Below, piece by piece: positions 968 through 63,112 of a stretch of 64,000 bases of DNA. The notes beneath the pieces are model-generated. The model ran no database searches. It saw nothing but the letters and a program-made list of their open reading frames with translations, and was not told where the DNA came from. The position numbers and the translations under genes are program-made. How positions within the stretch are numbered: the first letter of the stretch is position 1; each line of letters opens with the position of its first letter. Origin of the DNA: a virus (taxonomy: Duplodnaviria; Caudoviricetes); the IMG/VR virus record IMGVR_UViG_3300050821_004803, positions 1,113-65,112 of that record; one strand, given 5' to 3'.

Positions 968-1382
968 GGTTTACGCCAAAACCGCAGGTTTCCCAACTCG
1001 CACCCTAACTGTGATTTTTAAAGACCAATCAGGTTTGGTGTTACAACCCAACAACGCGGCTTCAACTACAACTATCTATCATTCGCTTAAGGATATTTGC
1101 GGGATGAGGTCGTGGACTCTGTGTAAGCCGTATGTTTTGTTCGATGAGACTATACCAGAGAGTGTGGTTGCAGCAAACTCCACAAGTCTGCGTATACAGG
1201 AACTAGAGAGTGGATATTTTCGTTGCTGCTTTGTTAATGCGGCAGGAGAAGGCCCATCGGCTGTCTTCAGTGAACAACATCTTCGAAATCGCATCGCTCT
1301 TTACACCCGCGCTCTTGAGCACATAAAAACCAGGCCAAACCCCTCTCAACACCAACCCGAACCCGACCCTTACAAGGAGTAG
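927..1382 (+). CDS. hypothetical protein (SH3/KOW-like N-terminus)
   Basis: MTRDEAQQLKVGDKVY N-terminus typical of small phage proteins; tight gene packing. Confidence 0.65.
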   Translation: MTRDEAQQLKVGDKVYAKTAGFPTRTLTVIFKDQSGLVLQPNNAASTTTIYHSLKDICGMRSWTLCKPYVLFDETIPESVVAANSTSLRIQELESGYFRCCFVNAAGEGPSAVFSEQHLRNRIALYTRALEHIKTRPNPSQHQPEPDPYKE

Positions 1383-1383
1383 T

Positions 1384-1911
1384 ATGCTTCTTACATCCGA
1401 ACAACGTAAACAAATGCTTGATGAGGTTCTTAAGGAACATCCCAGATTTCCGGGATTTGACCTGCGTTGGGGTTATGTTAACGCAATCTCTACCGAAAAC
1501 GGTGGGTATTTTGTGCCTATAGAGGATATAGAAGAATGTCTTAATAAGTCCCGGTATGGTACAAAGGAGCACCCTCTTTTGCCGATGTACCCAGAATTTA
1601 GATTAGATTTTGGATGTTCTTTTGTCAGAAAAACACCCACATGTTGCGGAATTATTGATGTTGGAAACTGGGGAACCCATAACGTTACTCCTTCTCAAGA
1701 ACGCAACTTCAAGCTTTTCATTGATTTTTTACACCGACAAAAACAGGGACAGGGGCTGGGTTTAAGAGCGGGAGTTGTTCTGGCTCACACCAATGATAAC
1801 TATGTTGGGGTTAACAAGCTTCTTCGAGAATGCGGTTTCAAAGAACTTAATTTCTTCAACGCCAATTCGGATCACATGATGTCAATGTGGACGCTTGTTT
1901 TACATCCATAA
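1384..1911 (+). CDS. hypothetical protein, possible GNAT-like fold (paralog of 1924-2301)
   Basis: AAGGAG RBS; PTCCG...LRECGF...NANS...WTL pattern shared with the next gene. Confidence 0.65.
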   Translation: MLLTSEQRKQMLDEVLKEHPRFPGFDLRWGYVNAISTENGGYFVPIEDIEECLNKSRYGTKEHPLLPMYPEFRLDFGCSFVRKTPTCCGIIDVGNWGTHNVTPSQERNFKLFIDFLHRQKQGQGLGLRAGVVLAHTNDNYVGVNKLLRECGFKELNFFNANSDHMMSMWTLVLHP

Positions 1912-1923
1912 GGAGGAAACTAA

Positions 1924-2301
1924 TTGTTGGACCCAGAGAAAGTAAAGAGAGCGCGAGCTTACACAGGGCGTGTTGATGATCGTTATTGTATACAGCTGAT
2001 TCAATTTCCTGCTTGTTGTGGTGCGGGCATCGCCTATAATTTTGATATATTCACCCCAGAGGCTACCCAAGCGCAATTTATCATGGATCTGGCTAGTTGT
2101 GGGTGGGGTGTGGTATGTGCCACCACTACAGCTAGTCAGAGAACGGGCAATAAAATTCTGAAATATGTGGGATTTCGTCCAGTATCTGTTACCAAAAACC
2201 CCAACTCCGGTAACAACGTGACATTTTGGGTTCTTGATCTCAAAGAATCCAAGAAGAAGGTGCCTGATGGTACAAATGCTTCGAACTCGTCTAGGCTATG
2301 A
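1924..2301 (+). CDS. hypothetical protein, possible GNAT-like fold
   Basis: AAGGAGG RBS; PACCG...LKYVGF...NPNSG...WVL. Confidence 0.65.
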   Translation: MLDPEKVKRARAYTGRVDDRYCIQLIQFPACCGAGIAYNFDIFTPEATQAQFIMDLASCGWGVVCATTTASQRTGNKILKYVGFRPVSVTKNPNSGNNVTFWVLDLKESKKKVPDGTNASNSSRL

Positions 2302-2443
2302 CGAGGAGGTGGTTGGTTGTCCAACATGCGGAACTGTTCAACACCTTGTTGATGGGGCGATCCATCAATGTGGTGCGGACAATAACCCGCTTGCAGTGAC
2401 AATTGATACAAAACAACTAAAGATTGCACTTCCGGCTGATTAG
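2267..2443 (+). CDS. small Zn-ribbon-like hypothetical protein
   Basis: CPTC...HQC; fills the gap between neighbouring genes. Confidence 0.45.
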   Translation: MVQMLRTRLGYDEEVVGCPTCGTVQHLVDGAIHQCGADNNPLAVTIDTKQLKIALPAD

Positions 2444-2699
2444 TGGGGGTTGTATGATTGTGTCGTTCGTAACACGATGCGGGTCGAAATATCATATCGA
2501 CCACACCAACAACCTTTTTGCTCAAGAGTCTCCGATACTACGGGAGGGTCCTTTGTGGAACAAACCCATCGTTGTGATTGGTAAGCGGGTGGAAATTTGG
2601 ACCTGTCCAGCACACGGTTCGGATTCTGAGGTTGCCCGAGTCATTCAAACAGGAGTTGTGGTGTCTCGGGAGGTCAGTCTTGAATCGTATCTACACTAG
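2424..2699 (+). CDS. hypothetical protein (paralog of 60889-61239)
   Basis: TRCGSKYHID...RVIQT versus TASGSIYHID...RIIET; start probably the ATG at 2454. Confidence 0.6.
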   Translation: MHFRLISGGCMIVSFVTRCGSKYHIDHTNNLFAQESPILREGPLWNKPIVVIGKRVEIWTCPAHGSDSEVARVIQTGVVVSREVSLESYLH

Positions 2700-2964
2700 T
2701 CCTAAGTATTACCGAGAAACGGTCAACCAACAAATCAATCGTTTAGAGGTTGAGTTAGAGGATGCTCGCCTCCGTCATGCCCTGCGGGTGGGTAATCAAT
2801 CTCTCCGCTATCTTGAAACTCGCCGAATGTGTGGCGAAGTGTTTACATCTCTTGAGACAGAGATGATGATGAATACTCAATGTAAGATAGATGGTGTAGC
2901 ACCGGAGTTTATCCCGGCAGTGGTCAGTTTGATTGTCGAAAGGTATGTTCCGAAGGTGGTTTAA
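2578..2964 (+). CDS. hypothetical protein
   Basis: ORF ends 3 nt before the ligase gene; true start probably near 2680. Confidence 0.5.
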   Translation: MVSGWKFGPVQHTVRILRLPESFKQELWCLGRSVLNRIYTSPKYYRETVNQQINRLEVELEDARLRHALRVGNQSLRYLETRRMCGEVFTSLETEMMMNTQCKIDGVAPEFIPAVVSLIVERYVPKVV

Positions 2965-2967
2965 CTT

Positions 2968-5015: not shown

Positions 5016-5354
5016 ATGCCGCTGTTCTTCACATATGGAAGCTTACGAAAAGGACAGTTTAACCACAGCTTCCTCCTTGCGTTAAAACCCGTCTTCAAGA
5101 GAACCGCGCAAATTAAAGCAGATATGGTGGATTTAAGATTACCCTTTCCAGCAATAAAAGAGGGGTTTGGCCTGGTGGAAGGTGAAATTTATGAGGTAGA
5201 CAAACATGGATTTGCCGAACTGGATCTCCTCGAAGGACATCCTCACTTTTACGAGCGACGCACAGTTACAACCACCGACGGAGATGCTGTTGAAGTCTAC
5301 TTTGGAACAGGGGTCCTTTATCTCCAGGCCAAACCCCTCTCAACTGAGGGTTGA
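5016..5354 (+). CDS. gamma-glutamylcyclotransferase (AIG2-like/GGACT) family protein
   Basis: FTYGSLRKGQFNH, VEGEIYEV, LDLLEGHPHFYER motifs. Confidence 0.9.
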   Translation: MPLFFTYGSLRKGQFNHSFLLALKPVFKRTAQIKADMVDLRLPFPAIKEGFGLVEGEIYEVDKHGFAELDLLEGHPHFYERRTVTTTDGDAVEVYFGTGVLYLQAKPLSTEG

Positions 5355-9725: not shown

Positions 9726-10478
9726 TTGAATTTTCACATTGCCCGCACAGCCTCTACCACAGGTAATCTTCTTCAAACATTAGTCAATCAACAACTGACC
9801 GGCAACACTGATACTGCACATGTTTGTTATGGGGTGGGTAGACCGGACAATGCGAGAACGTTAAATGCGAATTGTTCAAGATATAGCAAGTTAGAACAAG
9901 CCCGACTTCTTTCAGAGGGGTTAGGGCCTGGGGCCTTGCGTGTATTTGACACCATAGAAGGAGCTGAAAATGCAATTCGAGTCGGTGGTAGTCCCCTGTT
10001 TGCTCGGACTTTTGTGCATTCTAGGGGTCGTGATATCCGTCCAGTTTTGGATGCTTGGCAGTGCCGTCCACTCTTTGAACGAGGGAATGTCTTTTTTACG
10101 GGTTTTGTGCCGTCGAATCGTGAGTTCCGGGTATGGATCTACCGACAGCGACATCTTGGCAGTTATGAAAAGATACTTCGTCGCCCGAACGACTGTCAAC
10201 GTCTCGGAAGAAACCACGATAACGGTTTCGACTTCTCAGGGATCGAGGGTGATGACGTTCCCGAAGGGCTCAAAAATATCTCCAGACAAGCTATTAGAAC
10301 CCTTGGTCTCGACTTCGGGGCCGTTGATGTCCTGCAAGGACTAGATGGGGGCTATGTGGTGCTAGAGGTTAACTCAGCTCCAGGGGTCAGCAACGAGCGT
10401 CGTCGTGTCATCCAAGCTCTTGCACATCGAATTACTCGTTGGGCGGCGAATGGTTGTCCAAATAGAAGGGATGAATAA
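9726..10478 (+). CDS. ATP-grasp ligase (phiEco32/RimK-like C-terminal)
   Basis: REFRVWI, RNHDNGFDF, LGLDFGAVDV, VLEVNSAPG. Confidence 0.9.
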   Translation: MNFHIARTASTTGNLLQTLVNQQLTGNTDTAHVCYGVGRPDNARTLNANCSRYSKLEQARLLSEGLGPGALRVFDTIEGAENAIRVGGSPLFARTFVHSRGRDIRPVLDAWQCRPLFERGNVFFTGFVPSNREFRVWIYRQRHLGSYEKILRRPNDCQRLGRNHDNGFDFSGIEGDDVPEGLKNISRQAIRTLGLDFGAVDVLQGLDGGYVVLEVNSAPGVSNERRRVIQALAHRITRWAANGCPNRRDE

Positions 10479-11383: not shown

Positions 11384-11942
11384 GGCCCCAGGCCAAACCC
11401 CTCTTATAGGAGAGAATCCGGAAAATGCCCTCTACGAAACGTGGAAAAAAGCTTCTGAAGCTGCGCGTCCACCGATTGAGCAAGCGTTGGTTCCACTTCT
11501 ATATCGTCACGCATCCAAGGTTTGTTGGATGGTTCTTCATTCTAATCAGCCTGATTTAATTGGAACGATTATTAATGATGTGTTTCTTGGAATGAGAAAA
11601 TTTAAGGGGGACAGTCTTTTTTCTACTTGGGTTCACGCTCTTGCACTGTATCGGTGTAGAGCGGAACTTCGAAACATTCGACGCAGGAAAGAGGTAAACG
11701 GGATTGTTGATGGGGGTGTTTCGTATAGTGTGAGGGGTTGTCAAGAAACTTCTAGCGTGGTCCAAAATTTGGTGTCCAAGTTGGGTAAACGAGAACAGGA
11801 ATTGGTTCGATTAAAGATTGATGAAGGTTTATCTGACAAAGAAATAGCGGAAGTTCTTGAGCTTCATCCCGTTTATATTCAAAGACTTTGGAAGGCATTA
11901 CGAAAGCGATTGAGGTCGATGTATGGAAGGAAAGCTTCTTAA
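11370..11942 (+). CDS. ECF-type sigma-70 family RNA polymerase sigma factor
   Basis: Region 2 FKGDSLFSTWVHALA; region 4 HTH LGKREQELVRLKIDEGLSDKEIAEVL. Confidence 0.88.
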   Translation: MDLHEAPGQTPLIGENPENALYETWKKASEAARPPIEQALVPLLYRHASKVCWMVLHSNQPDLIGTIINDVFLGMRKFKGDSLFSTWVHALALYRCRAELRNIRRRKEVNGIVDGGVSYSVRGCQETSSVVQNLVSKLGKREQELVRLKIDEGLSDKEIAEVLELHPVYIQRLWKALRKRLRSMYGRKAS

Positions 11943-14307: not shown

Positions 14308-15085
14308 TCCTGTACGTATTGGAGGGGTTGGGCCTGGGGTTATTGAATATAAACGAGTTAGCCAAGAACCCCCTAAACGTCTTGTCCTTTCTGTTGATAG
14401 TCCTCCAAAATGGGGTAAAACTCATTTCTGTTTGACCGCTCCAGATCCCATAGCCGTTCATAACCTCGATCTTGGCCTAGAGGGAGTGGTTGAGGCGGAA
14501 GAATTCAAGAGCAAAGAAATCTATGTCTTTGACTATCAAATTCCTATGTCCGCTACACTACCCGGCTCAGAATTTTCGGGAATGGCCGATGCTGCTCAGA
14601 AAGTCTGGAAGGAGTATGTACGCAATTTCCGAGATTCTCTGTCGAAAATGCGGACGGTTGTGGTGGATACAGGGTCGGAGGCGTGGCAACTTGTACGATT
14701 GGCTCGTCTGGGTAAACTCACCTCCGTACTTCCGGTACAATATACAGCAGTCAATGCGGAGTTCCGACAACTTACTCAGATCGCTTTGTCGCAAAACGTC
14801 TGTAATGTTATCTTTACTCACAAGGTAAAGGATGTATATAAGGATGACAAGAAAACGGGCGAGGTAGAGCGAGCGGGTTTTGGAGAAATAGAATACGATG
14901 TTCAAACTGTTCTTAAGGCTTCTAGGGACTACGCAAAGACCGGAGTTGACCAGTTTGGATTGGAGATCGCAGCATGTCGCGCCAATTTATCGGCCACCGG
15001 AAAGAGATTTGTTGGAGCAGATTGCACCTTTGCTAAGGTTGCCGCAGCAATCTATCCGTCCACAACCGAAGAAACCTGGAAATAA
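14291..15085 (+). CDS. AAA_24/Sak4-like P-loop ATPase (recombination/annealing)
   Basis: Walker A SPPKWGKT, Walker B VVVDT, VIFTH; lies next to the nuclease and SSB-like genes. Confidence 0.78.
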   Translation: MTIPTNPVRIGGVGPGVIEYKRVSQEPPKRLVLSVDSPPKWGKTHFCLTAPDPIAVHNLDLGLEGVVEAEEFKSKEIYVFDYQIPMSATLPGSEFSGMADAAQKVWKEYVRNFRDSLSKMRTVVVDTGSEAWQLVRLARLGKLTSVLPVQYTAVNAEFRQLTQIALSQNVCNVIFTHKVKDVYKDDKKTGEVERAGFGEIEYDVQTVLKASRDYAKTGVDQFGLEIAACRANLSATGKRFVGADCTFAKVAAAIYPSTTEETWK

Positions 15086-15134: not shown

Positions 15135-15340
15135 AATCAACAGGAGACAAAGGGTTGTACCTGAGTTGAACGTTGATGGTCAACCTAAAGGGGTTAGAGC
15201 CTGGGTTGGTTGTGCGATAGAACCGGGAAGTCCTTGAAAATATCGGGAACTCCGTTCTGAGGGGTTCGGACCCGTGCCTGGCGAGGCTCCCAAGGTTCTC
15301 CTATCCAACAACCACCCAAGTTTCTAACCCCTTTATTTGT
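15135..15340 (+). ncRNA. putative rod-shaped ncRNA containing the complement of the dispersed motif
   Basis: 13-bp perfect closing stem 15186-15198/15323-15335 plus nested stems; no ORF; upstream promoter motif; contains AAGGGGTT-AGA-GCCTGG and GAGGGGTT-N9-GCCTGG. Confidence 0.7.
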
Positions 15341-16825: not shown

Positions 16826-17469
16826 AAGTAGTTTGCATATCCGATACTCATGACGTTCACTATCCAGAACTTCCGGAAGGGGATATGCTGATTCACGCTG
16901 GGGACGTTTCTTTAAACGGAAGTCCCCAAGAAATTACGAGATTTTTAGATTGGTTTGAAAAACAACCTCATCGACATAAAATTTTTGTAGGTGGTAATCA
17001 CGACCGTTCGTTGGAGCAATACGGATGGGGATTTTTCGAGCGAAAAGGCATTACGTACCTCGAAAACTCCTCCACAAAAATTGAAGGTTTTAAAATATTT
17101 GGTTCTCCTGCCTCTCGTACCTTTGGTCACATCTGCGCTTTTATGCGAGAGGAAGAAGCCCTACGAAGACTTTGGCTGGGTCTTGATGGCACTCACGATA
17201 TAGTTATCACCCACAGTCCGGCCAAGTGGTTTAGAGATTCTGAAGCCGATGGTGTGCCTCTGGGCAGTGAATCGCTAGCAGAATTTCTTCGATACGCCAA
17301 TCCCTTACTCCACGTATGCGGACACATACACGGCGGATACGGACAAACGGAGCACAAAGGAACTCAGTACGTAAACGCATCGCACCTGGATGTTACGTAC
17401 CGAAAGTTCAATGCTCCTATTGTAGTAGACCTAGAAGATATAAAGAAAAAAATAAACTCCAGGCCCTAA
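16822..17469 (+). CDS. calcineurin-like metallophosphoesterase (239FB-like)
   Basis: SDTH, HAGD, GGNHD, ITHSP, CGHIH. Confidence 0.92.
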
Positions 17470-19883
17470 CCCCTCTGGGAGCCAACCTGAAAGTTTGTGA
17501 AATAGCGGCTTGTGCTGGGTGTCCGCTAAGAAAGAAAAATCCAGATGCTATATTTGTTCCTCCTCGTGTTGGCAGTAATCTTCGTTTGGAGATTGGTGAC
17601 TACCCAGGACGTGTCGCTGCAGAGCTTGGACATCCCCTTGGTGGTGGCTCCGGTGGCTGGCTCACGTCGATGTATTCTAAAGCCGGTCTTGAAGAAAAAG
17701 AAAACTCTGTCCTAAACGTAATTCAATGTAAACAACCCGAAGAGGAGTTTCCGAAAAATGAGCATGAGGCCATCGAGCACTGCCGAAAAGCCCACGTGGA
17801 ACCCTTCCTTGCATCCAAACCTTGGACTCGTGTTGATGTGTTTGGAGAATATCCGCTCAAATATATTCTCCAAAAGAATCTTGAAATCTCTAGATGGCGT
17901 GGAACTATTTTATCCGTACCAGCTCTCGACAATTCAAAGATTGCTATTCCTACCTTCCATCCTAGATATATCGCCAAAGATCAAGCCATGTTCCCGGTGG
18001 CGATTAATGATCTACGGAAAACGCTCACCGTTGAACCAGAATATTATAACATTTATCCCTCCCTCAACGATGTCAGACAATTTCGATCAACCCGCTTTGC
18101 TTTTGACATTGAAACAAATGGATGGACAAAAGAGATCAACATTGTTGGACTTTGTTCAGAAGATTATAGGGTAATAGTTGTACCATTTATCGGAGAGTAT
18201 GTTGACGAGTTACGACGCATATTTGCAAACGCCACAGAAGTCATTGGTCAGAATCTGGTTCAGTTTGACTTACCTGTGTTGGCTCACAATGGCATTTATA
18301 TTCGTGGCCCTGAAGAGTGTGTGGTATGGGATACGATGCTTATGCATCATCTACGCTTCCCAGTATTCCCCCACGATCTTGAGTTCATTGGCAAACAATT
18401 TACGAACAAAGGCGCATGGAAAGCCGATAAAGTTTCTTTCGAAACATATTGCGCGAGAGACGTTGATGTCACCTGGCGATCCTTTCATCCGCTTAAAGAA
18501 CTTTTGGTTCAAGCCGGTCTCTTAGATAACTATAAATATATCAGTTGGCCGCTGGCTAAAATTTGCAAATTGATGACCGATATAGGTTTATCCCGATCAT
18601 TCAATCGAATTGCTAAACTTCGGGATGAGCTACACGAAATTATCAAAGTACAAGAGGGGTTATTGCCTGGGCATCTTAGAACTTTTACTAAGTATGTAAA
18701 CAAGCGAAAACCGGCTCCCGAAGGTACAGTCAACGAAAAAGGCAGACTAGTTAAGTATATTTATGAGCCGGTAGCGGAGGTTGAGGTTCCTTGGCGGTCG
18801 TCGGCTGTCAAAATGAAATTCCTCTATGAGGAGCTTCGGGACGCTAAGGGTAAAAAGCTTGAAGTGGTTAAACACATCAAGACGAAACAACCCACAACCG
18901 ACAAAAATGCCCTTGACAAGTTGTATGTTCGTCATAAACTACCGGAACTTCGGGCACTTAAAGAGCTTCAACGCTGTGCCACACTGTTGCAGGGTTTTGC
19001 TAAAGAGGACTTAAAAGTAAACGATGTCTTACACCCATCTTTCAACCCCCACGGAACAGAAACAGGACGTCTTAGTTCGAGTGGTCCTAACATTCAGAAC
19101 CAGCCAAGCGCTGTGCGATATTCTTACGTCCCAAGAAATGCCGGAGGAAAGATTGTCTCGGTTGATTACTCGGGCATTGAAAACCGACTCGTTGCGGATT
19201 TTGCGAGAGATCGAAAACGTAGAGAGTGGTTCAAAGACATCAATTTCTCTGAACATAAATACCTAGCGGCTCTTATTGAAGGAATTGCTTATGAAGAAGT
19301 CGTCAAATCCAAGGACAAAGATTCTCCTTATGCAATGGCGAAAGTCATTGTCCACGGGTCTGACCGTCTCATGGGTGCTAAGAAAATTGCCGCCCAATAT
19401 GACCTTGACATTGATCGAGTAAAAGATTTTCAAGCAATTTGGAAGAGAGAAATCTCGGATACTATTGCTTGGCAATCCCGAGTAGGAGCAGAGGCTGCTA
19501 GGATCGGCTGGCTCTCTAACCCCTTCGGGCGTAAGTTGTGGTTGTGGGAAAGCAATTCAATAACTAAGGCGGTGTCGTTTATGCCTCAGTCCACAGCTGC
19601 TGATGTTATCTTTCGGGCTATGATTGCGCTTATGTATGAGCGCATTGGATGGCCAAAAGAGTGGGCATTAAAGATTGCACCGTACGTGGAATCGTTGCCT
19701 GAAGGGGTCCTACTGCTGGCCCAGGTACACGACGAATTGTTGTGTGAAACCGAAAATGCAGATCAAGTAAATCCTACACTAGAGGTTCTGGAACGGGTGA
19801 TGACGCAACCCTGGCCAGAGTTAAACGGGTTGTCCCTTCCTATAGGGAAGGCGTCAGGTGATTCTTGGGGAGATTGTGAATGA
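17316..19883 (+). CDS. polA: family A DNA polymerase with N-terminal UDG-like domain and 3'-5' exonuclease
   Basis: UDG-like CAGC, GDYPG, NVIQC, PTFHP; Exo DIET, NLVQFD, YCARD; Pol TGRLSS, DYSGIE, QSTAAD, VHDE. True start probably near 17487. Confidence 0.93.
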   Translation: MRTHTRRIRTNGAQRNSVRKRIAPGCYVPKVQCSYCSRPRRYKEKNKLQALTPLGANLKVCEIAACAGCPLRKKNPDAIFVPPRVGSNLRLEIGDYPGRVAAELGHPLGGGSGGWLTSMYSKAGLEEKENSVLNVIQCKQPEEEFPKNEHEAIEHCRKAHVEPFLASKPWTRVDVFGEYPLKYILQKNLEISRWRGTILSVPALDNSKIAIPTFHPRYIAKDQAMFPVAINDLRKTLTVEPEYYNIYPSLNDVRQFRSTRFAFDIETNGWTKEINIVGLCSEDYRVIVVPFIGEYVDELRRIFANATEVIGQNLVQFDLPVLAHNGIYIRGPEECVVWDTMLMHHLRFPVFPHDLEFIGKQFTNKGAWKADKVSFETYCARDVDVTWRSFHPLKELLVQAGLLDNYKYISWPLAKICKLMTDIGLSRSFNRIAKLRDELHEIIKVQEGLLPGHLRTFTKYVNKRKPAPEGTVNEKGRLVKYIYEPVAEVEVPWRSSAVKMKFLYEELRDAKGKKLEVVKHIKTKQPTTDKNALDKLYVRHKLPELRALKELQRCATLLQGFAKEDLKVNDVLHPSFNPHGTETGRLSSSGPNIQNQPSAVRYSYVPRNAGGKIVSVDYSGIENRLVADFARDRKRREWFKDINFSEHKYLAALIEGIAYEEVVKSKDKDSPYAMAKVIVHGSDRLMGAKKIAAQYDLDIDRVKDFQAIWKREISDTIAWQSRVGAEAARIGWLSNPFGRKLWLWESNSITKAVSFMPQSTAADVIFRAMIALMYERIGWPKEWALKIAPYVESLPEGVLLLAQVHDELLCETENADQVNPTLEVLERVMTQPWPELNGLSLPIGKASGDSWGDCE

Positions 19884-21330: not shown

Positions 21331-21381
21331 CGCAGGGCATTAAGATTACCCCCAGGCCAAACCCCTCAGAAGGATAAACTT

Positions 21382-23305: not shown

Positions 23306-23320
23306 GAGGGGTTTGGCCTG

Positions 23321-24395: not shown

Positions 24396-24586
24396 GCGGG
24401 TTTGCGCGGAACACCCAAATGCCGCAGTTTGGCTGCCTAGAACTCCCGGTAACTGGGAGCAGTTTGCTTGTCCTGATGTTATGAAAATTTACGATCCTGG
24501 TATTGACTTGATCGACCAGTACATCAAGATAGATAAGCTTATACAAAAGCCACCAGGCTAAACCCCTCTTTTAGGGACTTATATAC

Positions 24587-32726: not shown

Positions 32727-32744
32727 TTGTCCTTGTGAGAGGGG

Positions 32745-40649: not shown

Positions 40650-41465
40650 CTAAATTGCATAGCAGGCCAACGAATAGGCCCCTATTCCGGTTGTACTGGT
40701 ACCATTCAAGAAACCGACCTCAGCAATAATTCCATTAAAAGAATCGCCCCCGTCACCCTCACCAATTAGGTTAGTAGGCTGAGTTAGCGCTCCTGCCTGT
40801 GTTCCTGAGCCATCGCTAGAACAAGTCCCCCCTGAACAGATAAAAAATGCCCACGCACCTGAGGTACTGTTCCATTGACCTACTACTGTAGTTGGACTAG
40901 TGGTAGAAATAGTAGCTGTCCCAACACCCAAAGAAACCACTCCAGCCACTAACAGCTCCTGATGAAGTGAACTATTTATCCGATATTCCATTGCCCCCGG
41001 TTGTCCCCCAATTATTGCAAGAGAAGCCCCACTGGTTGCGGGTTGAACAACAGCAAAGAAGGTATAAGTAGTAACCGTAATTGGAATGGATGTTCCAAAG
41101 GTTAAAACCCGGTTACTGGTAAAACCGTTGTAGGTCATTGCTGGGAGGGTGTTAATTTGATTGGTGTTATAAATCGGCTGTAGTCCGCCGGTACTTTGAG
41201 TTGCAGCATTGCTAGCCACAATTTCAGCCAAATTATTAACACCCGATCCATTAGTTGCAACCGTTGTCCCTGCTGCATCAACCCACCAATCGTAGGTCAT
41301 AGTAGGATGACTGGTACAAACGGGACCGCTACCACCCGTTGTAGGGGAATGTCCCCCAGAAGGAAGTGATTGATAATCTCGCAAGAGGGGTTTGGCCTGG
41401 AGGGGGTTTGTTTGCTGAAGTAACAAAACTATTGCTAGGAGTGTTTTTAGCGTATAACCCTCCAA
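40650..41465 (-). CDS. concanavalin A/LamG-like domain protein with hydrophobic N-terminus
   Basis: QPIYNTNQINTLPAM, YTFFAVV, IG....FNGIIAEV pattern. Confidence 0.65.
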   Translation of the reverse strand: MEGYTLKTLLAIVLLLQQTNPLQAKPLLRDYQSLPSGGHSPTTGGSGPVCTSHPTMTYDWWVDAAGTTVATNGSGVNNLAEIVASNAATQSTGGLQPIYNTNQINTLPAMTYNGFTSNRVLTFGTSIPITVTTYTFFAVVQPATSGASLAIIGGQPGAMEYRINSSLHQELLVAGVVSLGVGTATISTTSPTTVVGQWNSTSGAWAFFICSGGTCSSDGSGTQAGALTQPTNLIGEGDGGDSFNGIIAEVGFLNGTSTTGIGAYSLACYAI

Positions 41466-45642: not shown

Positions 45643-45694
45643 GAACCACCCACTAATCTTTAGAATGCCCCCTTAGAGGGGTTTGGCCTGGCGG

Positions 45695-46400: not shown

Positions 46401-46459
46401 TTGTTTCCTTTCAAAGTAGAGAGGGGCTACAACCCCAGGCCATAACCCCTCTCGTCTAT

Positions 46460-48801: not shown

Positions 48802-49185
48802 TTAGACGCTCTCATAAAGAGCGAAAACTTTGTCGAACTCGACTTTCTCATAGGGCTTCGCAAGTGCCGCCCTAACTTCGGACTTTTTGGCAATAGCCCG
48901 ATTTACCTCAGCCTCGTCATAACCTATCCAATAAATACCCAACTGAAGACGATCATAGTCTCGGAGCGTGTCCTGGGGTTGTTCGAGCTTGGCGCGTAAC
49001 GCAGCCTTTTGAAGGCGCTTACGATTCATTAAAGTTACGAAACCGGGATGGTTGATAAGGGAACGAACTGACTCTTCATCGTCAATATTTTCATTAAATC
49101 TCTTTTCAACTTCGACTACAAGAGGTGTGTTAGAGCTAAACCACCAGGCCCTAACCCCTCTAAACCATTTCTTAATGTGGAACAA
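48802..49185 (-). CDS. hypothetical protein between portal and scaffold
   Basis: SLINHPGF motif; position typical of podovirus head operons. Confidence 0.65.
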   Translation of the reverse strand: MFHIKKWFRGVRAWWFSSNTPLVVEVEKRFNENIDDEESVRSLINHPGFVTLMNRKRLQKAALRAKLEQPQDTLRDYDRLQLGIYWIGYDEAEVNRAIAKKSEVRAALAKPYEKVEFDKVFALYESV

Positions 49186-52985: not shown

Positions 52986-53186
52986 TCTTTTTTCCTTTAA
53001 TTGGAGATTCTATTGCTGAGAGGGGTTTGGCCTGGTAGATATTGGATCACCCCCGATTACTCGCCTCGTTCGAACATTTCGTCTGTTGGACATCCACTAG
53101 CAAACCAGATTGCGTATACTGTATCTGGGCTTAACTTCGTGTAGGCTTTCAGTATTTCTAAAAGTTCTGGACTAAAGTAAATCGGA

Positions 53187-54730: not shown

Positions 54731-54840
54731 TGGAGCCTTCTCTCCGGCTGTCACACCACTCTTTAACGGGTAGCCCGGAAGCAGGTGTCGCTTATTAGAG
54801 GATTACCTGGCACTTTCACCTTAGGAGTGTAGTAGCCCCA
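54731..54840 (-). ncRNA. small structured RNA, possibly C4-antisense-like
   Basis: Minus strand GGGGCT-ACTACACTC...GAGTGGTGT-GACAGCCGGAGAGAAGGCTCCA. Confidence 0.35.
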
Positions 54841-54852
54841 GGCTAAACCCCT

Positions 54853-55326
54853 CTAACTTGGAAAACTATAAACGCACTTACCAATCAAATACGGAGACAA
54901 ATGAAGTGTTTCCGGAGTCACAAGGTTCGAGTATTCTGAAAGAACGTTCAACATTTGTAGTCCACCAGCCAAAGCCGATTCAAATACGAACATACTACAA
55001 ATTTCCGTTCCTTCGGAAGATAAATTCTTGTGAAGAAACAACCCCGCAATATCTTTGAAGTCGTAAGGAGTACCAATTTTGGATCGCGCAAAGGCCATCA
55101 TTTTGGTATATTGATCGTCGGCTACTGGAATTTCATATCGACGCTCACGGGAAACCTTAGTATAGTCAGCGGGTCGTTCTTGAACCCCGCCTTTTGCATG
55201 AGCACCGATATAAGAACCCGTCTCGGTGATAATTTCAACGTGAGACCACTCCGAGAATGTTACTAGTCGAATCGCATCTGATATCGGATCGGATTCGGTT
55301 ATAAATCGAATCTTAAATAAAGCCAT
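54853..55326 (-). CDS. permuted papain-like NlpC/P60 (YiiX-like) protein
   Basis: WSHVEI, IGTPYD, EICS, VTPE. Confidence 0.8.
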   Translation of the reverse strand: MALFKIRFITESDPISDAIRLVTFSEWSHVEIITETGSYIGAHAKGGVQERPADYTKVSRERRYEIPVADDQYTKMMAFARSKIGTPYDFKDIAGLFLHKNLSSEGTEICSMFVFESALAGGLQMLNVLSEYSNLVTPETLHLSPYLIGKCVYSFPS

Positions 55327-56236: not shown

Positions 56237-56524
56237 TTATTTTGACAAAAACTTATTAAATATCTGGGTTAGGTGTTGGGTAACGACGCCATCAGAGGCG
56301 TGCCTAGCTAAGAAGGAGTTAAATTTAGTCACCTGGACAGTCAAAAGCTTACCCGTAAAAGTGATTGCAAGGTCAACATCGTGGGTAGATACCGAACCGA
56401 AGAGAGGGGTTTGGCCTGGCTCTGTGGTGATAGCAAACTTGGTGAAGTCCTGTTGGTCAGATTTGACTTTTTCAAGCAGGGTGTTAAACTGATCCTGGGT
56501 ACACGGGAAATCTACTGTAACCAT
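56237..56524 (-). CDS. hypothetical protein
   Basis: TAATG coupling with the upstream gene. Confidence 0.6.
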   Translation of the reverse strand: MVTVDFPCTQDQFNTLLEKVKSDQQDFTKFAITTEPGQTPLFGSVSTHDVDLAITFTGKLLTVQVTKFNSFLARHASDGVVTQHLTQIFNKFLSK

Positions 56525-58280: not shown

Positions 58281-58546
58281 GGTGCAACAAATCGACAACA
58301 TTTCAAAAGATGGGTGGCGAATAAACAAGAGTATTATATAATAACTATATATTTTGACCGTGTTATAAGATTATGTGTTGTTGCTTATACGCCGTCCGTC
58401 TTTTACAGAGTTGTCGATTTGTTGCACCTACGCCAGGCCAAAACCCCTCTAAAAGGTATGAGGGGTTAGCCTGGATTACGTGCAAGTGTTGTAGAATGTG
58501 TAGGTTATGCGACTTATAACTCGGCCTACGGCCTCACTATAAGTCT
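58281..58546. other. origin-like non-coding region
   Basis: 19-bp perfect IR 58281-58299/58410-58428 around an AT-rich core; back-to-back motif pair 58433-58474; hairpin GACTTATA/TATAAGTC. Confidence 0.55.
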
Positions 58547-60947: not shown

Positions 60948-61239
60948 GTGGGCGCGTGTCCACCACTCCCCACACTCAACTGGCCTACGCACGGAACAAG
61001 GCACATTTACACAAATATCGCCCATACGCATCAACCAATGCCTTGTGATTGCTGCGCCGCCCATTGACAAACGTTGTAGCGTGCGTATCATCGAAACCAG
61101 TGAGATCACCTCAATTGACTACACCCCGGACCTACTCATACACATTCCGCAACGGCTTATGTTAGCGGATATCAACCCCCAGGCTAACCCCTCTCAACGT
61201 TTGACTCTGGATAAAATTGTTGAAGAATACGGAATGTAG
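60889..61239 (+). CDS. hypothetical protein (paralog of 2424-2699)
   Basis: GGAGG RBS; TASGSIYHID motif. Confidence 0.7.
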   Translation: MLRLTTASGSIYHIDTTNRRWARVHHSPHSTGLRTEQGTFTQISPIRINQCLVIAAPPIDKRCSVRIIETSEITSIDYTPDLLIHIPQRLMLADINPQANPSQRLTLDKIVEEYGM

Positions 61240-61655
61240 ATGGCGAGTGGGACGCTTAGGCTTATGAGCGTTCAGTTTGCCAATGGGCGACAGTATGTGC
61301 CCATTTGAGGGTAGGAACACCAACGGACTACAGTCAGGCTGACTAACGTATCACAACTCCGCATTGGTGCAAAACCTACCTTCAAATGGTTACATATTAT
61401 GTTTGAAGTCCTTCCACGTAACTGCCACCATAGTGCAACCTTGGAAAAGGCCACACCTATTGTGATAGTGGAAGCCTTCCAGCGACACACAGCCTACGCT
61501 TAGGCTAGAACATTCTCCATATCCTGCGTCCAGCTCCACAGGCAGGGACAGTATAGAGTGGGGGGAACATAAACTCTCATTGGAAGATGCCTGTGTGTCG
61601 TTTTATGCTTAGTCACAACCGGAGTCCGGCAATGAAGACTCAATCCCGAGAGGAT
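61240..61655 (+). ncRNA. putative structured ncRNA (~400 nt)
   Basis: Stems 61301-61315/61375-61389, 61411-61417/61468-61474, 61483-61492/61591-61600; no + strand ORF. Confidence 0.55.
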
Positions 61656-61660
61656 GACCA

Positions 61661-62107
61661 ATGATGAGACAGCATTTAACGCAAGTTTCAAAAATCAATG
61701 ATTTGTATCAGGGTCTATGTGACTGTGGAACCGCTTGGACGGCTACGAAGTATATTTCGCGTTGCCCCGTCCAAGCCGATGAGGACGCATCTCCTGAAAA
61801 AGAAGTGGTCCAAGGGGAGGGGAGAGCGCCCGAGATAGTGATTGCAAACATCACCGTCGGTCAGGCGTACGAATGTGGACGGCGGCAATTCTTGGGGCCG
61901 ATGGAGTACTACAAAAGTAAGTATGAAAAAACCTTGGCCGAACTCACCGCACTCAGGAACGCTGAGACGCCAGAGAGTGCGTGGAATAGGGCAATCAAAG
62001 CAATTCTCTCAACACTTCGTCTCTACGAGGATAATCCAGAGTTTGGGATTTATTTAGAGACATTACCCTACACCCCACCTAACCCTCAGACTGGACAGGA
62101 AAAATGA
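61661..62107 (+). CDS. hypothetical protein
   Basis: GAGG RBS; coupled to the next gene. Confidence 0.6.
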   Translation: MMRQHLTQVSKINDLYQGLCDCGTAWTATKYISRCPVQADEDASPEKEVVQGEGRAPEIVIANITVGQAYECGRRQFLGPMEYYKSKYEKTLAELTALRNAETPESAWNRAIKAILSTLRLYEDNPEFGIYLETLPYTPPNPQTGQEK

Positions 62108-62412
62108 GAATGTATCACATTACAGACCGCGACTTTGAAGACTTCTATGCGTTGATGGAGAAGATCGAGTCCGACAGCAAGTTGGCGTATGGTAACGGTC
62201 CTGTCGTCAACCAGAAATATGTTCTTGAGGAACTTCGCCGTAATTATCGCTATTACTTTATCGGTTGGCGAAACCGCATGATGGGCGGAGATACTTACTT
62301 TCGTGGTCCAGATCCGCCTCGCGATGATACGCATAAATACATCCGCGCTGAGATCGATAGACTACAAAGATTATTGCCCAAGGCGGACCCTCAGATAGCG
62401 ACAGACTCTTAA
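62104..62412 (+). CDS. hypothetical protein
   Basis: AGGA RBS; ATGA overlap. Confidence 0.65.
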   Translation: MRMYHITDRDFEDFYALMEKIESDSKLAYGNGPVVNQKYVLEELRRNYRYYFIGWRNRMMGGDTYFRGPDPPRDDTHKYIRAEIDRLQRLLPKADPQIATDS

Positions 62413-62424
62413 AGGAACACTCCG

Positions 62425-62823
62425 ATGAAACGAATCCTTCAACTCGGAACTTTCGGCCTATGCGTGGCAACCCTCCAGGCCCAAACCCCTCTATCCCCAC
62501 CACATGACCATAAATTCTTCGACAAAACCAACCTCTCGTTGTTCTCGGCGGATTTCCTCACCCGCACACTTGACGCAAAAACCACGGAAGACTTCCTACA
62601 CAATCCCTGTGGATGCTTCCACGAGCAAAACATTCCTTTCGCCACTGGTACCCGTGTTGGCACGTATGGTTATTCGCTGGGCATTGCTGGGGTTGTTGTT
62701 GGCTTGTCTTATGTTGCTCACCGCACAGGTCATCATAAGCTAGAGCGATTAATTCCGCTTGAAGATGTGGGATATGATGGACGATTGGTTATCAACAATA
62801 TCAAGTTGAACAGGAGCAAATAA
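62425..62823 (+). CDS. secreted/membrane hypothetical protein
   Basis: Signal peptide; KFFDKTN...HRTGHHKLER motif. Confidence 0.7.
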   Translation: MKRILQLGTFGLCVATLQAQTPLSPPHDHKFFDKTNLSLFSADFLTRTLDAKTTEDFLHNPCGCFHEQNIPFATGTRVGTYGYSLGIAGVVVGLSYVAHRTGHHKLERLIPLEDVGYDGRLVINNIKLNRSK

Positions 62824-63033
62824 GTGGCTCGCGGACCTCTTCATAACGTATATCGGCGCACCTATCATGTTGCGTGCGCTCTTGAATCGTCCAAACGCCC
62901 CATTGAACGGCAGTTCTCGGTGTTGATGCACAAAATATCTCACGCACTCCACGATATTCAAACAGGAGAAAATCCTGAAGTTTCTATTAAACGAGCGTTG
63001 GAAGAAGAAAAAATCCTACGTAGATACTTATAA
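62824..63033 (+). CDS. hypothetical protein
   Basis: AGGAG RBS; abuts the upstream stop. Confidence 0.5.
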   Translation: MARGPLHNVYRRTYHVACALESSKRPIERQFSVLMHKISHALHDIQTGENPEVSIKRALEEEKILRRYL

Positions 63034-63112
63034 AGAGGGGTTGGGCCTGGTGGAAGTGGGTACCATACAACGAGCAACGAAGAACGGTTATTGTTGAAAA
63101 GGGGACCAAAAA

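What the first reader, a model, noticed from the sequence alone, without database searches (positions are those of the whole stretch)
1330..63050. Genome-wide bipartite motif CCAGGC-N1-3-AACCCCTC, 33 copies on both strands
Seen: 15 forward and 18 reverse copies (coordinates in the repeat feature), 11 of them the exact 17-mer CCAGGCCAAACCCCTCT. The two halves are nearly invariant while the spacer varies in length (1-3 nt) and sequence. Copies occur in either orientation relative to transcription and are often inside essential genes (portal, polymerase, helicase-like, ejection). Inference: this fits poorly with promoters, RBSs, terminators or mycobacteriophage-type stoperators, which are oriented with transcription. 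A variable gap suits recognition of ssDNA or base-pairing by a two-segment RNA better than a rigid dsDNA-binding protein.
Basis: seen in the sequence. Interest (0 to 1): 0.92.

Follow-up and report, generated by a model that had tools for sequence, protein, structure and literature searches.

The report
Conserved two-block signal in soil phage
A 16-25 base, two-part DNA signal is scattered about every 2 kb over both strands of an uncultured soil phage and kept at the same places in distant relatives; it most likely marks where gene units start, but what reads it is unknown.

Summary
All 11 exact 17-mers are there.

It is not a host repeat. It is the hallmark of a clade of uncultured phiEco32/SU10-like soil podoviruses: four relatives carry 13-21 copies of CACCAGGC-N3-6-ACCCCTC plus a lineage-specific 3' tail.

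Place and orientation are conserved although the genomes are only 65-73% identical even in their best genes. This holds for antisense copies and for copies inside genes, where the DNA is kept while the encoded amino acids change.

The element is directional:
- 28 of 93 copies have a ribosome site and start codon 8-35 nt after the CCCCTC end, against 5 of 93 behind the other end.
- Sense to antisense is 62:31.
- In early/middle arms the strands alternate, and close inverted pairs with identical spacers form 16-28 bp stems.

No phage RNA polymerase was found, and the phage sigma factor is poorly conserved.

Best reading (0.4): a clade-specific promoter-like signal for the start of transcription units. 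Rivals are RNA punctuation stems, operator or roadblock sites, and nick, priming or recombination sites. The reader of the motif is unidentified.

The parts
1330..1345 (+). copy, sense; in the 3' end of ORF 927-1382, 38 nt before the ATG of 1384-1911
5160..5175 (-). copy, antisense; inside GGACT gene 5016-5354 (read as EGFGLV); divergent partner of 5324 with the same spacer
5324..5339 (+). copy, sense; last 30 nt of the GGACT gene, 67 nt before the ATG at 5407
9915..9931 (-). copy, antisense; inside ATP-grasp gene 9726-10478 (EGLGPG), made by substitution, not insertion
11388..11403 (+). copy, sense; in gap 11384-11429 just before the ECF-like sigma gene; G001 has a sense copy before its sigma gene too
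14322..14337 (-). copy, antisense; 15 nt after the stop of 14080-14307, at the unconserved N-terminus of the AAA_24 gene
15188..15204 (-). near copy (AACCCCTT), antisense; in gap 15086-15340
17459..17475 (+). copy, sense; end of metallophosphatase gene 16822-17469, just before the PolA coding start
18654..18670 (-). copy, antisense; inside PolA between the exonuclease and polymerase domains (EGLLPG); relatives lack it
21193..21209 (-). copy, antisense; 3' part of DUF3987 helicase gene (EGLGPG); divergent partner of 21352
21352..21367 (+). copy, sense; in gap 21331-21381, 14 nt before the start of 21382-22161; same place in G003
23306..23321 (-). copy, antisense; fills the whole gap between 22961-23305 and the Xer-like integrase gene; same place (-8/-9) in G001 and G003
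24553..24568 (+). copy, sense; downstream of the integrase, over the stop of 24277-24561; a sense copy follows the integrase in G001 and G003 too
28134..28149 (+). near copy (CCAGAC), antisense; inside the 1864-aa gene
29090..29105 (-). copy, sense; inside the 1864-aa gene at aa 467 in a P/A/T-rich linker; same place in G001, G002 and G003 with different encoded residues
30283..30299 (-). copy, sense; 1864-aa gene at aa 69
31572..31587 (+). copy, antisense; inside the 442-aa gene at +261 (RGVGPG); antisense copy at +232 to +261 in 4 of 4 genomes
32739..32755 (-). copy, sense; 12 nt before the ATG of 32388-32726; same place (-21 to -24) in 4 of 4 genomes
36278..36294 (-). near copy (CCAGTC), sense; in gap before SU10-adaptor gene 35604-36257; exact copies at this place in G001, G002 and G003
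37248..37264 (+). copy, antisense; inside tail gene 36297-37763 (GGVLAW)
41385..41400 (-). copy, sense; in gap between the 1339-aa gene and 40650-41384
45676..45691 (-). copy, sense; in gap upstream of the 1339-aa gene; sense copies at the matching place in G001-G004
46435..46451 (+). copy, antisense; in gap after 46460-46711; same place in G002
49144..49160 (+). copy, antisense; just after the portal stop, in the start of 48802-49185; convergent with 49326; same pairing in L088
49326..49341 (-). copy, sense; unconserved C-terminal tail of the portal gene (TRPNPS); relatives have a sense copy just after the portal
53020..53035 (-). copy, sense; in gap after the terminase gene, 34 nt before the ATG at 52985; a sense copy between terminase and this gene in 5 of 5 genomes
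54838..54853 (+). copy, antisense; in gap upstream of the terminase gene
56404..56419 (-). copy, sense; inside ORF 56237-56524
58433..58449 (+). copy at the divergence point of the two arms, pointing into the rightward early arm; faces 58460 across 10 nt
58460..58474 (-). copy at the divergence point, pointing into the leftward late arm
61179..61193 (+). copy, sense; 3' end of ORF 60889-61239
62475..62491 (+). copy, sense; 5' part of ORF 62425-62823
63035..63050 (-). copy, antisense; in gap 62824-63112

Best explanation
The motif is a clade-specific, directional cis-element of an uncultured phiEco32/SU10-like soil podovirus lineage. Its full form is about 22-25 bp: (C/A)C-CCAGGC, a spacer of 1-6 nt that usually ends in A, then ACCCCTC and a lineage-specific 3-4 nt tail. 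I read it as the start signal of the phage's transcription units, a promoter or initiator-like site read on DNA. Initiation would fall at or just after the CCCCTC end, so that the short leader still carries the ribosome-binding site. Copies pointing against the genes would be the same signal used backwards. In the early/middle arm they sit upstream of almost every sense copy, which creates back-to-back pairs whose transcripts would fold into long stems between cistrons. Shown: the existence, directionality, association with gene starts, positional conservation, DNA-level selection inside genes, and co-evolving tail. Inferred: that the signal acts in transcription initiation, who reads it, and what the antisense copies do.
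For: (1) Size, asymmetry and information content. Conserved columns span about 22-25 positions with no separate upstream -35-like block. From recall, that is the format of phage-polymerase-type promoters rather than of sigma-70 sites.
(2) Directionality. 28 of 93 copies in five genomes have a Shine-Dalgarno sequence plus a start codon with an ORF of 50 aa or more 8-35 nt after the CCCCTC end. Only 5 of 93 do so behind the CCAGGC end, and random positions give 5.4% (p = 5e-14 and 0.57). The shortest distance is 11 nt, so the ribosome site is never overlapped.
(3) Orientation. Sense to antisense is 62:31 (p = 0.0017), and 33:11 in the late arms.
(4) Place. 13 of 28 gaps of 20 nt or more in the window hold a copy. 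Copies stand at the divergence point of the two arms, pointing into each arm (58433 +, 58460 -), and at the head of the leftward early arm in G002, G003 and G004.
(5) Conservation. Place and orientation are conserved in relatives whose best genes are only 65-73% identical in DNA. Sense copies lie 21-31 nt before the 112-aa gene (4 of 4 genomes), before the SU10-adaptor gene (4 of 4, counting the window's near copy), between terminase and the next gene (5 of 5), and before the sigma gene (window and G001).
(6) Co-evolving tail. The lineage-specific tail (GTCA in G003/G004, CCCA in G001, T-CAAC here) is present in single copies as well as pairs. From recall, promoters of T7, T3 and SP6 differ between phages in the same way.
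(7) No competing signal. Sigma-70-like promoter matches are at chance level in the three stretches scanned, 1-40000 and 44001-64000 (22, 31 and 24 found against 21.5, 29.6 and 25.5 in shuffles); 40001-44000 was not scanned. The motif is the only repeated candidate signal found.
(8) Known precedent. phiEco32-like phages redirect the host polymerase with their own sigma factor to compact, unusual promoters (PMC8948821, passages read). This phage has an ECF-like sigma gene.
Against: (1) One third of copies (31 of 93) point against the genes, and some of these are conserved in place: inside the 442-aa gene (4 of 4 genomes) and 8-9 nt before the integrase start (3 of 3). A plain promoter does not predict this.
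(2) A sense copy conserved in 4 of 4 genomes sits in the middle of the last gene of the late arm, the 1864-aa gene, where a promoter has no obvious gene to serve.
(3) No phage RNA polymerase was found by Pfam, PHROGs, PDB sequence search or catalytic-motif scan.
(4) The sigma factor is a poor candidate reader. It is only 28% identical between the window and G001, its region-4 recognition helix is not shared, and G005 has an equally similar sigma (31%) but no motif. Two blocks 1-6 nt apart also cannot be -35 and -10 elements.
(5) The same signal occurs in early, middle and late arms, which is unusual for a class-specific promoter.
(6) The variable spacer is unlike T7-type promoters.
(7) In the window itself the association with starts is weak (4 of 30).
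(8) No transcript 5' ends could be read, because only assembled contigs of two soil metatranscriptomes were available.
Confidence: 0.4

Rival explanations
1. RNA punctuation. Sense copies (S) and antisense copies (S*) are complementary modules within polycistronic transcripts. S*/S couples fold into long double-stranded stems between cistrons that are cut by host RNase III or stabilise mRNA ends, as at the RNase III sites of the T7 early region. The variable spacer is then simply an internal loop between a 6-bp and an 8-9-bp helix.
For: In early/middle arms the strands alternate: G000 14 of 17 transitions (p = 0.006), G001 12 of 13 (p = 0.002), G004 8 of 10. Close inverted pairs have identical spacers in 8 of 19 cases against 2.55 expected; all 8 are divergent pairs 59-148 bp apart, 7 of them in relatives' early regions and one in the window (5160/5324, over the end of the GGACT gene), and their 2-nt 5' flanks match in 7 of 8, the window pair (CA/CT) being the exception. 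An orthologous pair changed on both sides, TATAA/TATAA in G004 9565/9642 against TTATA/TTATA in G001 49554/49645. Predicted stems have energies of -52 to -87 kcal/mol. In G004 the antisense member follows the stop codon of the upstream gene and the sense member precedes the next ribosome site. Tolerance of spacer length fits pairing.
Against: RNase III needs no particular sequence, yet all copies share about 20 fixed bases and a lineage-specific tail, single copies included. Late arms hold mostly unpaired sense copies (33:11). Long-range couples do not have matching spacers. The one single-base mismatch in a close pair (G004 12030/12111) gives C-A on the gene-sense RNA and G-U only on the antisense RNA (my reading). 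Pairs even closer together (29-39 bp) are not matched.
Confidence: 0.2
2. Binding sites of a phage-encoded (or host) double-stranded-DNA-binding regulator. These would be operator, roadblock or insulator sites spread over the genome, comparable to the stoperators of cluster A mycobacteriophages, possibly acting in a polar way and in pairs.
For: There are 13-32 asymmetric sites per genome. They are enriched in short intergenic gaps and at gene ends, conserved in place and carry a co-evolving tail. An antisense copy fills the gap in front of the Xer-like integrase gene in 3 of 3 genomes, where insulation from upstream transcription would make sense. An integrase is present, so a temperate life style is possible.
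Against: No repressor or other DNA-binding candidate was found among the 55 different ORFs scanned by Pfam. A rigid DNA-binding protein should not tolerate spacers of 1-6 nt. From recall, stoperators are all in one orientation. Polar association with starts (28 against 5) is not required by this model. Sites inside long genes would block their own expression.
Confidence: 0.15
3. Sites of a DNA transaction: strand-specific nicks, primer synthesis or replication restart, recombination hot spots for module exchange, or action of the Xer-like tyrosine recombinase.
For: Copies are spread more evenly than random in the window (largest gap 4.6 kb; P = 0.0009 for exact copies, 0.0055 with near copies). 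They are kept even inside long genes by substitutions in linkers, as if a site were needed every few kb. Both strands are used. Known nick consensus sequences of phages are similarly long, bipartite in phiKMV, and conserved in place among relatives (PMC3517423, passages read). The nearest cultured terminases include phage tf and LUZ24-like phages, but at only 23-25% identity. The integrase gene is flanked by inverted copies in 3 of 3 genomes.
Against: All known nick systems put their sites on one strand only; here 15 lie on one strand and 18 on the other. Evenness is not significant in G001 (P = 0.10-0.13). The motif has no dyad symmetry, as a tyrosine-recombinase core site would. Direct repeats of a recombination site would delete essential genes. 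G005 has an integrase homologue but no motif. The helicase is not shared between the window and G001. Polar association with gene starts is unexplained.
Confidence: 0.15
4. A selfish miniature element (MITE-like, with inverted ends) or a repeat borrowed from the host.
For: Early-region pairs look like a miniature element: perfect inverted ends of about 24 bp around 59-148 bp. The integrase gene is flanked by inverted copies.
Against: The exact 17-mer occurs once each in 79 stretches of 596 billion bases of bacterial and archaeal genomes. My arithmetic gives about 69 expected by chance, no stretch has more than one motif-like copy, and apparent clusters are orthologous genes of related species. 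Coding copies arose by substitution, not insertion. Most copies are single. Places are orthologous across deep divergence rather than polymorphic.
Confidence: 0.05

Closest known systems
Promoters of phage single-subunit RNA polymerases (T7, T3, SP6 type); recalled, no call
   Same: An asymmetric signal of about 23 bp with very high information content, many copies per genome, often overlapping the end of the upstream gene, differing between related phages at a few positions in all copies at once.
   Different: No such polymerase gene was found here. One third of copies are antisense. Spacer length varies. The signal is present in all temporal arms.
Promoters of the phage sigma factors of phiEco32 (tAATGTAtA, six sites) and 7-11 (GTAAtg-16-aCTA, eight sites); PMC8948821, passages read
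   Same: The phage is of the same broad type (SU10-type portal and adaptor, phiEco32-type COOH-NH2 ligases, its own sigma-like gene). The host polymerase is redirected to compact non-sigma-70 signals that sit at syntenic places.
   Different: Here there are 30 or more copies of a 22-25 bp two-block signal on both strands and in all arms. The sigma is only 28% identical between two genomes that share the motif. A relative with a sigma homologue has no motif.
Start-associated sequences (SAS) and extended SAS of cluster K mycobacteriophages; PMC3203893, passages read
   Same: An asymmetric repeat of unknown function just upstream of start codons of a subset of genes, conserved by gene family across the cluster. 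About half are accompanied by inverted repeats with a variable spacer, whose consensus differs between sub-lineages.
   Different: The SAS is 13 bp, contains the ribosome site, lies 3-7 bp from the start, occurs almost only in one orientation and only in the non-structural half. Here the ribosome site is outside the motif, a third of copies are antisense, and copies also lie inside genes.
Stoperators of cluster A mycobacteriophages (L5 repressor sites); recalled, no call
   Same: Tens of asymmetric sites over the whole genome, in short gaps and near gene ends.
   Different: Stoperators are 13-14 bp with fixed spacing and a single orientation relative to transcription, and have a known repressor. 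None of this was found here.
Consensus sequences at localized single-strand nicks of T5, phiKMV-like phages and tf; PMC3517423, passages read
   Same: A sequence-defined, phage-specific site in several to 14 copies. The phiKMV consensus is bipartite. Places are similar among related phages, and the function is unknown.
   Different: Sites of those systems are on one strand only. Here both strands are used, copies are associated with gene starts, and nicks are untested.
RNase III processing hairpins between T7 early genes, and PeSL cassettes of T4-type phages; recalled, no call
   Same: Repeated structured or regulatory cassettes between early genes. The early-region pairs here would give 16-28 bp stems.
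   Different: Most copies here are single and cannot form a local hairpin. All share one fixed sequence.

Membership tests
T7-type phage-polymerase promoter | Phage encodes a single-subunit RNA polymerase | tested here: not met
   No RNA polymerase family among 55 different ORFs scanned by Pfam and 18 scanned by PHROGs. No PDB relative of the 1864-aa and 1339-aa proteins. No double-psi-barrel catalytic motif in any ORF of 60 aa or more in G000w or G001. A very divergent enzyme cannot be excluded.
T7-type phage-polymerase promoter | Conserved asymmetric signal of about 20-23 bp with fixed internal spacing | tested here: inconclusive
   Length and asymmetry are met. Fixed spacing is not met: the spacer is 1-3 nt in the window and 3-6 nt in relatives.
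T7-type phage-polymerase promoter | All copies co-oriented with the genes they serve | tested here: not met
   62 sense and 31 antisense copies in five genomes.
phiEco32/7-11-type phage sigma promoter | Phage sigma-like gene present | tested here: met
   ORF 11331-11942 gives weak hits to Sigma70_r4_2 and ECF, to sigma-E regions 2 and 4 in PDB and to phrog_1740.
phiEco32/7-11-type phage sigma promoter | Signal compatible with sigma geometry (a single -10-like element, or -35/-10 elements 16-17 bp apart) and start site 6-9 bp downstream | tested here: not met
   Two blocks lie 1-6 nt apart with no further conserved block upstream. A start 6-8 nt after CCCCTC would fall in or past the ribosome site for the copies only 11-12 nt from the start codon.
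phiEco32/7-11-type phage sigma promoter | Reader co-conserved with the signal | tested here: not met
   The sigma is 28% identical between the window and G001, which share the motif, and 31% identical to that of G005, which has none. The recognition helix differs in all three.
Stoperator-type repressor sites | Single orientation relative to transcription, and a repressor gene | tested here: not met
   Orientation is 62:31. No repressor-like family was found. Binding is not testable here.
Localized nick sites (T5, phiKMV, tf) | All sites on one DNA strand | tested here: not met
   15 copies on + and 18 on - in the window; 15 forward and 17 reverse in the record.
Localized nick sites (T5, phiKMV, tf) | Physical nick at the consensus in virion DNA | not testable with these tools
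   This needs virion DNA. The phage is known only from metagenomes.
Cluster K SAS/ESAS | Motif includes the ribosome site and lies 3-7 bp from the start codon | tested here: not met
   The Shine-Dalgarno sequence lies between the motif and the start codon; the shortest distance from CCCCTC to the start is 11 nt.
RNase III intercistronic hairpins | Local inverted repeat giving a stem of about 20 bp or more between cistrons | tested here: inconclusive
   Met for 10 folded pairs (-52 to -87 kcal/mol). Not met for most copies, which are single.
Host repeat (REP/Correia type) or MITE | Many copies in a host chromosome; insertions with filled and empty sites | tested here: not met
   79 single hits in 596 Gb, about the chance number. 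Coding copies arose by substitution. Places are orthologous. Only one species-representative genome each was searched, and only with the exact 17-mer.

The most novel reading that the evidence does not exclude
The element is not an ordinary promoter. It is a genome-wide, two-block address read with a flexible gap, as single-stranded nucleic acid or by pairing between its own sense and antisense copies. It punctuates the phage genome or its transcripts on both strands at conserved places, including inside genes. That would be a phage signal system with no described counterpart: no phage polymerase, no conserved sigma, alternating strands, matched inverted pairs and an even spread.
Probability: 0.2. 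Interest if true: 0.85.

Novelty: new variant of a known kind. Interest (0 to 1): 0.66.

Why it matters
Tailed phages of soil bacteria are almost unstudied at the level of gene control. Here a single signal with high information content organises a whole clade of uncultured phiEco32/SU10-like podoviruses and has been held in place while the surrounding DNA diverged almost to saturation.

If it is a promoter, it defines a new promoter specificity with an unknown reader. The polymerase would not be phage-encoded, and the spacing would be flexible. Such a signal could be exploited as an orthogonal expression element.

If it is not a promoter, it is a new kind of genome-wide phage mark. The antisense copies conserved inside genes, the strand alternation and the matched inverted pairs are the features that no known system explains.

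Either way the motif is a ready-made handle. It is a search pattern for this clade in metagenomes, and bait for pull-downs and 5'-end mapping.

Tried and rejected
**Host repeat.** The exact 17-mer gave 79 single hits in genome contigs. All carried one motif-like copy per stretch, and the apparent enrichment in Caldilineaceae is the same orthologous gene in related species. It gave 0 hits in viral contigs (the window's own record may be left out). Rejected, with the caveat that the true host may not be in the collection.

**Chance or codon usage.** Rejected.

**Known RNA families and tRNAs.** 0 Rfam hits in the window and in three relatives' loci, and 0 tRNAs.

**Sigma-70 promoters and intrinsic terminators.** Counts are at shuffle level in the three stretches scanned (1-40000 and 44001-64000).

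**Pairing of the motif with 16S rRNA as a translation enhancer.** Duplex energies with four 16S genes (Acidobacteriota, Betaproteobacteria, Dehalococcoidia and Planctomycetota by their record titles) were -21.8 to -26.8 kcal/mol. These fall within the range of 100 shuffled motifs (means -21 to -22, minima -27 to -30). Rejected for these taxa.

**Hidden phage RNA polymerase.** None found.

Weakened.

**Clade-specific reader gene by presence and absence.** Genes shared by the window and G001 but absent from the motif-less G005 and G007 are a 171-aa ORF, AAA_24, a metallophosphatase, a MazZ-like protein, the 442-aa protein, the SU10 adaptor, and small ORFs of 82 and 101 aa. None looks like a nucleic-acid reader.

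**Equivalent motif in motif-less relatives.** G005 and G007 have no dispersed repeat and nothing conserved upstream of the orthologous genes. L107 (portal piece 66% identical) has 0 copies in 11.3 kb, but it has five TGATTCTAA sites in its first 1.7 kb, two of them right before start codons. Not followed further.

**Mosaic break-points at motifs.** The genomes are too diverged (65-73% identity in the alignable parts) to test this.

**Insertion origin of coding copies.** Rejected.

**Expression.** Two soil metatranscriptome runs hold parts of the phage, but only as assembled contigs at low depth. Contigs cannot show starts. One contig end (45671) lies 5 nt beyond the copy at 45676-45691, and two contigs run across the copy at 53020-53035. 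I give neither any weight.

**Papers.** A full-text search for the two 8-mers returned only unrelated papers, so I found no description of this motif. Searches gave the three papers that I read in passages. Supplementary files were not opened; Table S2 of PMC8948821 (promoters of phiEco32-like phages) and the nick tables of PMC3517423 may bear on the comparison.

Full report
**What is there.** The window is bases 1113-65112 of a 65,112-bp IMG/VR virus record that CheckV rates complete. CCAGGC-N1-3-AACCCCTC occurs 30 times, 14 on + and 16 on -, against 0.01 expected from dinucleotide shuffles. The 17-mer CCAGGCCAAACCCCTCT occurs 11 times. The two halves are tied to each other: 30 of 36 AACCCCTC sites and 30 of 45 CCAGGC sites belong to a full copy. 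The flanks carry no longer repeat, only weak extensions (CC or CA before CCAGGC, T and often CAAC after CCCCTC). Shuffling synonymous codons inside genes lowers the count from 30 to about 13, and 11 copies lie wholly outside the shuffled genes. The roughly 17 copies that overlap genes are therefore not a by-product of protein sequence.

**The genome.** Genes run rightward in 1-24,900, leftward in 24,911-58,251 and rightward again from about 59,200.
- The leftward arm is the late arm. It holds terminase, an SU10-type portal, major head protein, SU10 adaptor, tail genes and very large probable ejection proteins of 1339 and 1864 aa.
- The rightward arm holds small early ORFs, then three phiEco32-type COOH-NH2 ligases, an amidotransferase, an ATP-grasp protein, GGACT, an ECF-like sigma factor, an exonuclease, AAA_24, PolA with an N-terminal UDG-like domain, a DUF3987 helicase, phosphoesterases, a MazZ-like pyrophosphohydrolase and a Xer-like tyrosine recombinase with its catalytic residues.
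- It is thus a distant phiEco32/SU10-like podovirus. No cultured phage is close: terminase is at most 25% identical and portal at most 22%.
- Two soil metatranscriptome runs hold parts of it.

**Not a host repeat.** The 17-mer hits 79 stretches in 596 Gb of bacterial and archaeal genomes, once each. My arithmetic gives about 69 expected by chance. No stretch has a second motif-like copy.

**A clade-wide signal.**
- A portal search found 27 related viral loci.
- Relatives whose portals are 59-79% identical carry the same two blocks with a longer spacer, CACCAGGC-N3-6-ACCCCTC, followed by a lineage-specific tail: GTCA in G003 and G004, CCCA in G001 and L096, TGTAG/CATAG in G002, and T-CAAC here.
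- Counts with CCAGGC-N1-6-ACCCCTC are 21 in G001 (64.9 kb, complete), 13 in G002 (43 kb), 14 in G003 (35 kb), 15 in G004 (33 kb) and 0 in G005 (67 kb, complete, portal 53%).
- G005 and G007 have no dispersed repeat of any kind and nothing conserved at the orthologous gene starts.
- L107 (portal piece 66% identical) has 0 copies in 11.3 kb.
- Within the clade the alignable DNA is only 65-73% identical, so a block of about 20 invariant bases is under strong selection.

**Place and orientation are conserved.**
- Sense copies lie 21-24 nt before the 112-aa gene in 4 of 4 genomes.
- They lie 21-31 nt before the SU10-adaptor gene in 3 relatives, with the window's CCAGTC near copy at the same place.
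- A sense copy lies between terminase and the next gene in 5 of 5 genomes.
- Others lie just after the portal, upstream of the 1339-aa gene region, and before the sigma gene in the window and G001.
- A sense copy sits inside the 1864-aa gene at residue 437-476 in 4 of 4 genomes, in a P/A/T-rich linker. Because the window's spacer is shorter, the same DNA blocks encode KPL here and NPS in the relatives. Selection therefore acts on the nucleotide sequence.
- Antisense copies are conserved too: at +232 to +261 of the 442-aa gene (4 of 4), and 8-9 nt before the integrase start, whose GTG is the complement of the CAC that precedes CCAGGC (3 of 3). A sense copy follows the integrase.
- Coding copies specific to the window (ATP-grasp, PolA, helicase, tail, portal tail) align without gaps to relatives and sit in poorly conserved segments. 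They arose by substitution, not insertion.

**Directionality.**
- Over five genomes, 28 of 93 copies have a Shine-Dalgarno sequence and a start codon opening an ORF of 50 aa or more 8-35 nt after the CCCCTC end. Only 5 of 93 do so on the other strand behind the CCAGGC end, and random positions give 5.4% (p = 5e-14 and 0.57). Distances cluster at 11-30 nt and are never below 11.
- In the window alone the effect is weak (4 of 30).
- Relative to the local direction of genes, 62 copies are sense and 31 antisense (p = 0.0017). The split is 33:11 in late arms and 29:20 in early/middle arms.
- 13 of 28 gaps of 20 nt or more in the window contain a copy.

**Alternation and pairs.**
- Along early/middle arms the strand of successive copies alternates: 14 of 17 transitions in G000 (p = 0.006), 12 of 13 in G001 (p = 0.002) and 8 of 10 in G004. 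Late arms do not alternate.
- Many antisense copies sit 59-148 bp upstream of a sense copy.
- Of 19 close inverted pairs, 8 have identical spacers against 2.55 expected. All 8 are divergent pairs 59-148 bp apart: 7 in relatives' early regions, one in the window. Their 2-nt flanks match in 7 of 8; the window pair has CA/CT.
- An orthologous pair is TATAA/TATAA in G004 and TTATA/TTATA in G001.
- As RNA these pairs fold into uninterrupted stems of up to 28 bp, with energies of -52 to -87 kcal/mol for the ten pairs folded.
- In G004 the antisense member follows the upstream stop codon and the sense member precedes the next ribosome site.
- Pairs in late regions, even at 29-39 bp, are not matched.
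- Copies are more evenly spread than random in the window (largest gap 4.6 kb; P = 0.0009 for exact copies and 0.0055 with near copies). This is not significant in G001 (P = 0.10-0.13).

**Who reads it?**
- No phage RNA polymerase was detected.
- The ECF-like sigma factor has regions 2 and 4. It is only 28% identical between the window and G001, its recognition helix is not shared, and the motif-less G005 has an equally similar homologue.
- Two blocks 1-6 nt apart cannot be -35 and -10 elements.
- The integrase is better conserved (49-52% identical within the clade). However, G005 has a homologue at about 31% and no motif, and the motif has no dyad symmetry.
- Genes shared by the motif-bearing complete genomes and missing from G005 and G007 include nothing that looks like a nucleic-acid reader.
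- The tail, which is lineage-specific in single copies as well as pairs, nevertheless argues for a co-evolving reader.

**Interpretation.** The combination fits best with a promoter or initiator-like start signal of transcription units: size, asymmetry, polarity towards gene starts, presence at the heads of both arms, syntenic conservation, a co-evolving tail, and the absence of any other repeated signal (sigma-70-like matches are at chance in the stretches scanned). This is in the spirit of the unusual promoters that phiEco32-like phages use with the host polymerase (PMC8948821, passages). I give it 0.4.

Several features make it atypical:
- the conserved antisense copies;
- the copy in the middle of the last late gene;
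- the flexible spacer;
- use of the signal in all temporal arms;
- the lack of a credible reader.

The rivals are as follows.
- An RNA-level reading, in which sense and antisense copies form processing stems, explains the alternation, the matched pairs and the flexible spacer. It does not explain the fixed sequence, the tail of single copies or the late arms (0.2).
- Operator or roadblock sites (0.15) and DNA-transaction sites such as nicks, priming or recombination (0.15) remain open. Known nick systems differ in using one strand only (PMC3517423, passages).
- A selfish element or host repeat is nearly excluded (0.05).

**Comparison with what is known.** The nearest described phenomena are T7-type promoters (recalled), the phiEco32 and 7-11 sigma promoters, the SAS/ESAS repeats of cluster K mycobacteriophages, which are also start-associated, conserved and of unknown function (PMC3203893, passages), stoperators (recalled) and phage nick consensus sequences. 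The element fails at least one defining feature of each. I found no description of this motif: a full-text search for its 8-mers returned only unrelated papers.

**Verdict.** The finding is a real, strongly selected, clade-wide signal. I file it as a new variant of phage-specific regulatory repeats, with a substantial chance of being something not yet described.

Noticed in passing
window 63,800-64,000 (right end of the record): Tandem hexamer array, (GACCCA/GACCAA)n read on the - strand, with 15 overlapping copies of GACCCAGACC. The record ends inside it, so this is probably an assembly break rather than a true genome end.
   Followed up: partly
window 46890-47942; G002 15468-17456, G003 11900-13546, G004 27375-28906: The major head protein gene is one ORF in the window, but matches two separated ORFs in three relatives, with 0.7-1.2 kb between them. 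No Rfam intron family was found in those loci. An intron, an intein, an inserted gene or a frameshift remain undistinguished.
   Followed up: partly
window 21382-22901, 17316-19883, 2968-12975: A MazZ-like dGTP/dATP diphosphohydrolase (22536-22901) is the best-conserved protein of the clade (69-71% identical) and is absent from the motif-less relatives. It sits with HAD-like and metallophosphoesterase genes. PolA has an N-terminal UDG-like domain. Three COOH-NH2 ligases, an amidotransferase, an ATP-grasp protein and GGACT are present. Together these hint at non-canonical nucleotide or DNA chemistry.
   Followed up: no
window 23321-24256: A Xer-like tyrosine recombinase with catalytic Arg, His and Tyr lies in a phage type that is otherwise lytic. 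It is flanked by inverted motif copies in three genomes, and its GTG start is part of the motif's flank.
   Followed up: partly
window 61064-61091 (+) and 60195-60220 (+): The one near-consensus sigma-70-like promoter (TTGACA-16-TATCAT, 11 of 12) and a strong intrinsic terminator (9-bp GC-rich stem plus T10) both lie in the early arm.
   Followed up: no
L107 1-1700: A relative without the motif has five copies of TGATTCTAA on both strands in 1.7 kb. Two lie right before a ribosome site and start codon, and two are followed by a TATAAT-like hexamer at promoter distance.
   Followed up: partly
G002 5755 (-), G003 467 (-), G004 16929 (-) downstream flanks: The copy at the head of the leftward early arm is followed within about 35 nt by a shared palindromic ATGGG(A/T)CCC(AT) element, possibly an operator.
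   Followed up: no
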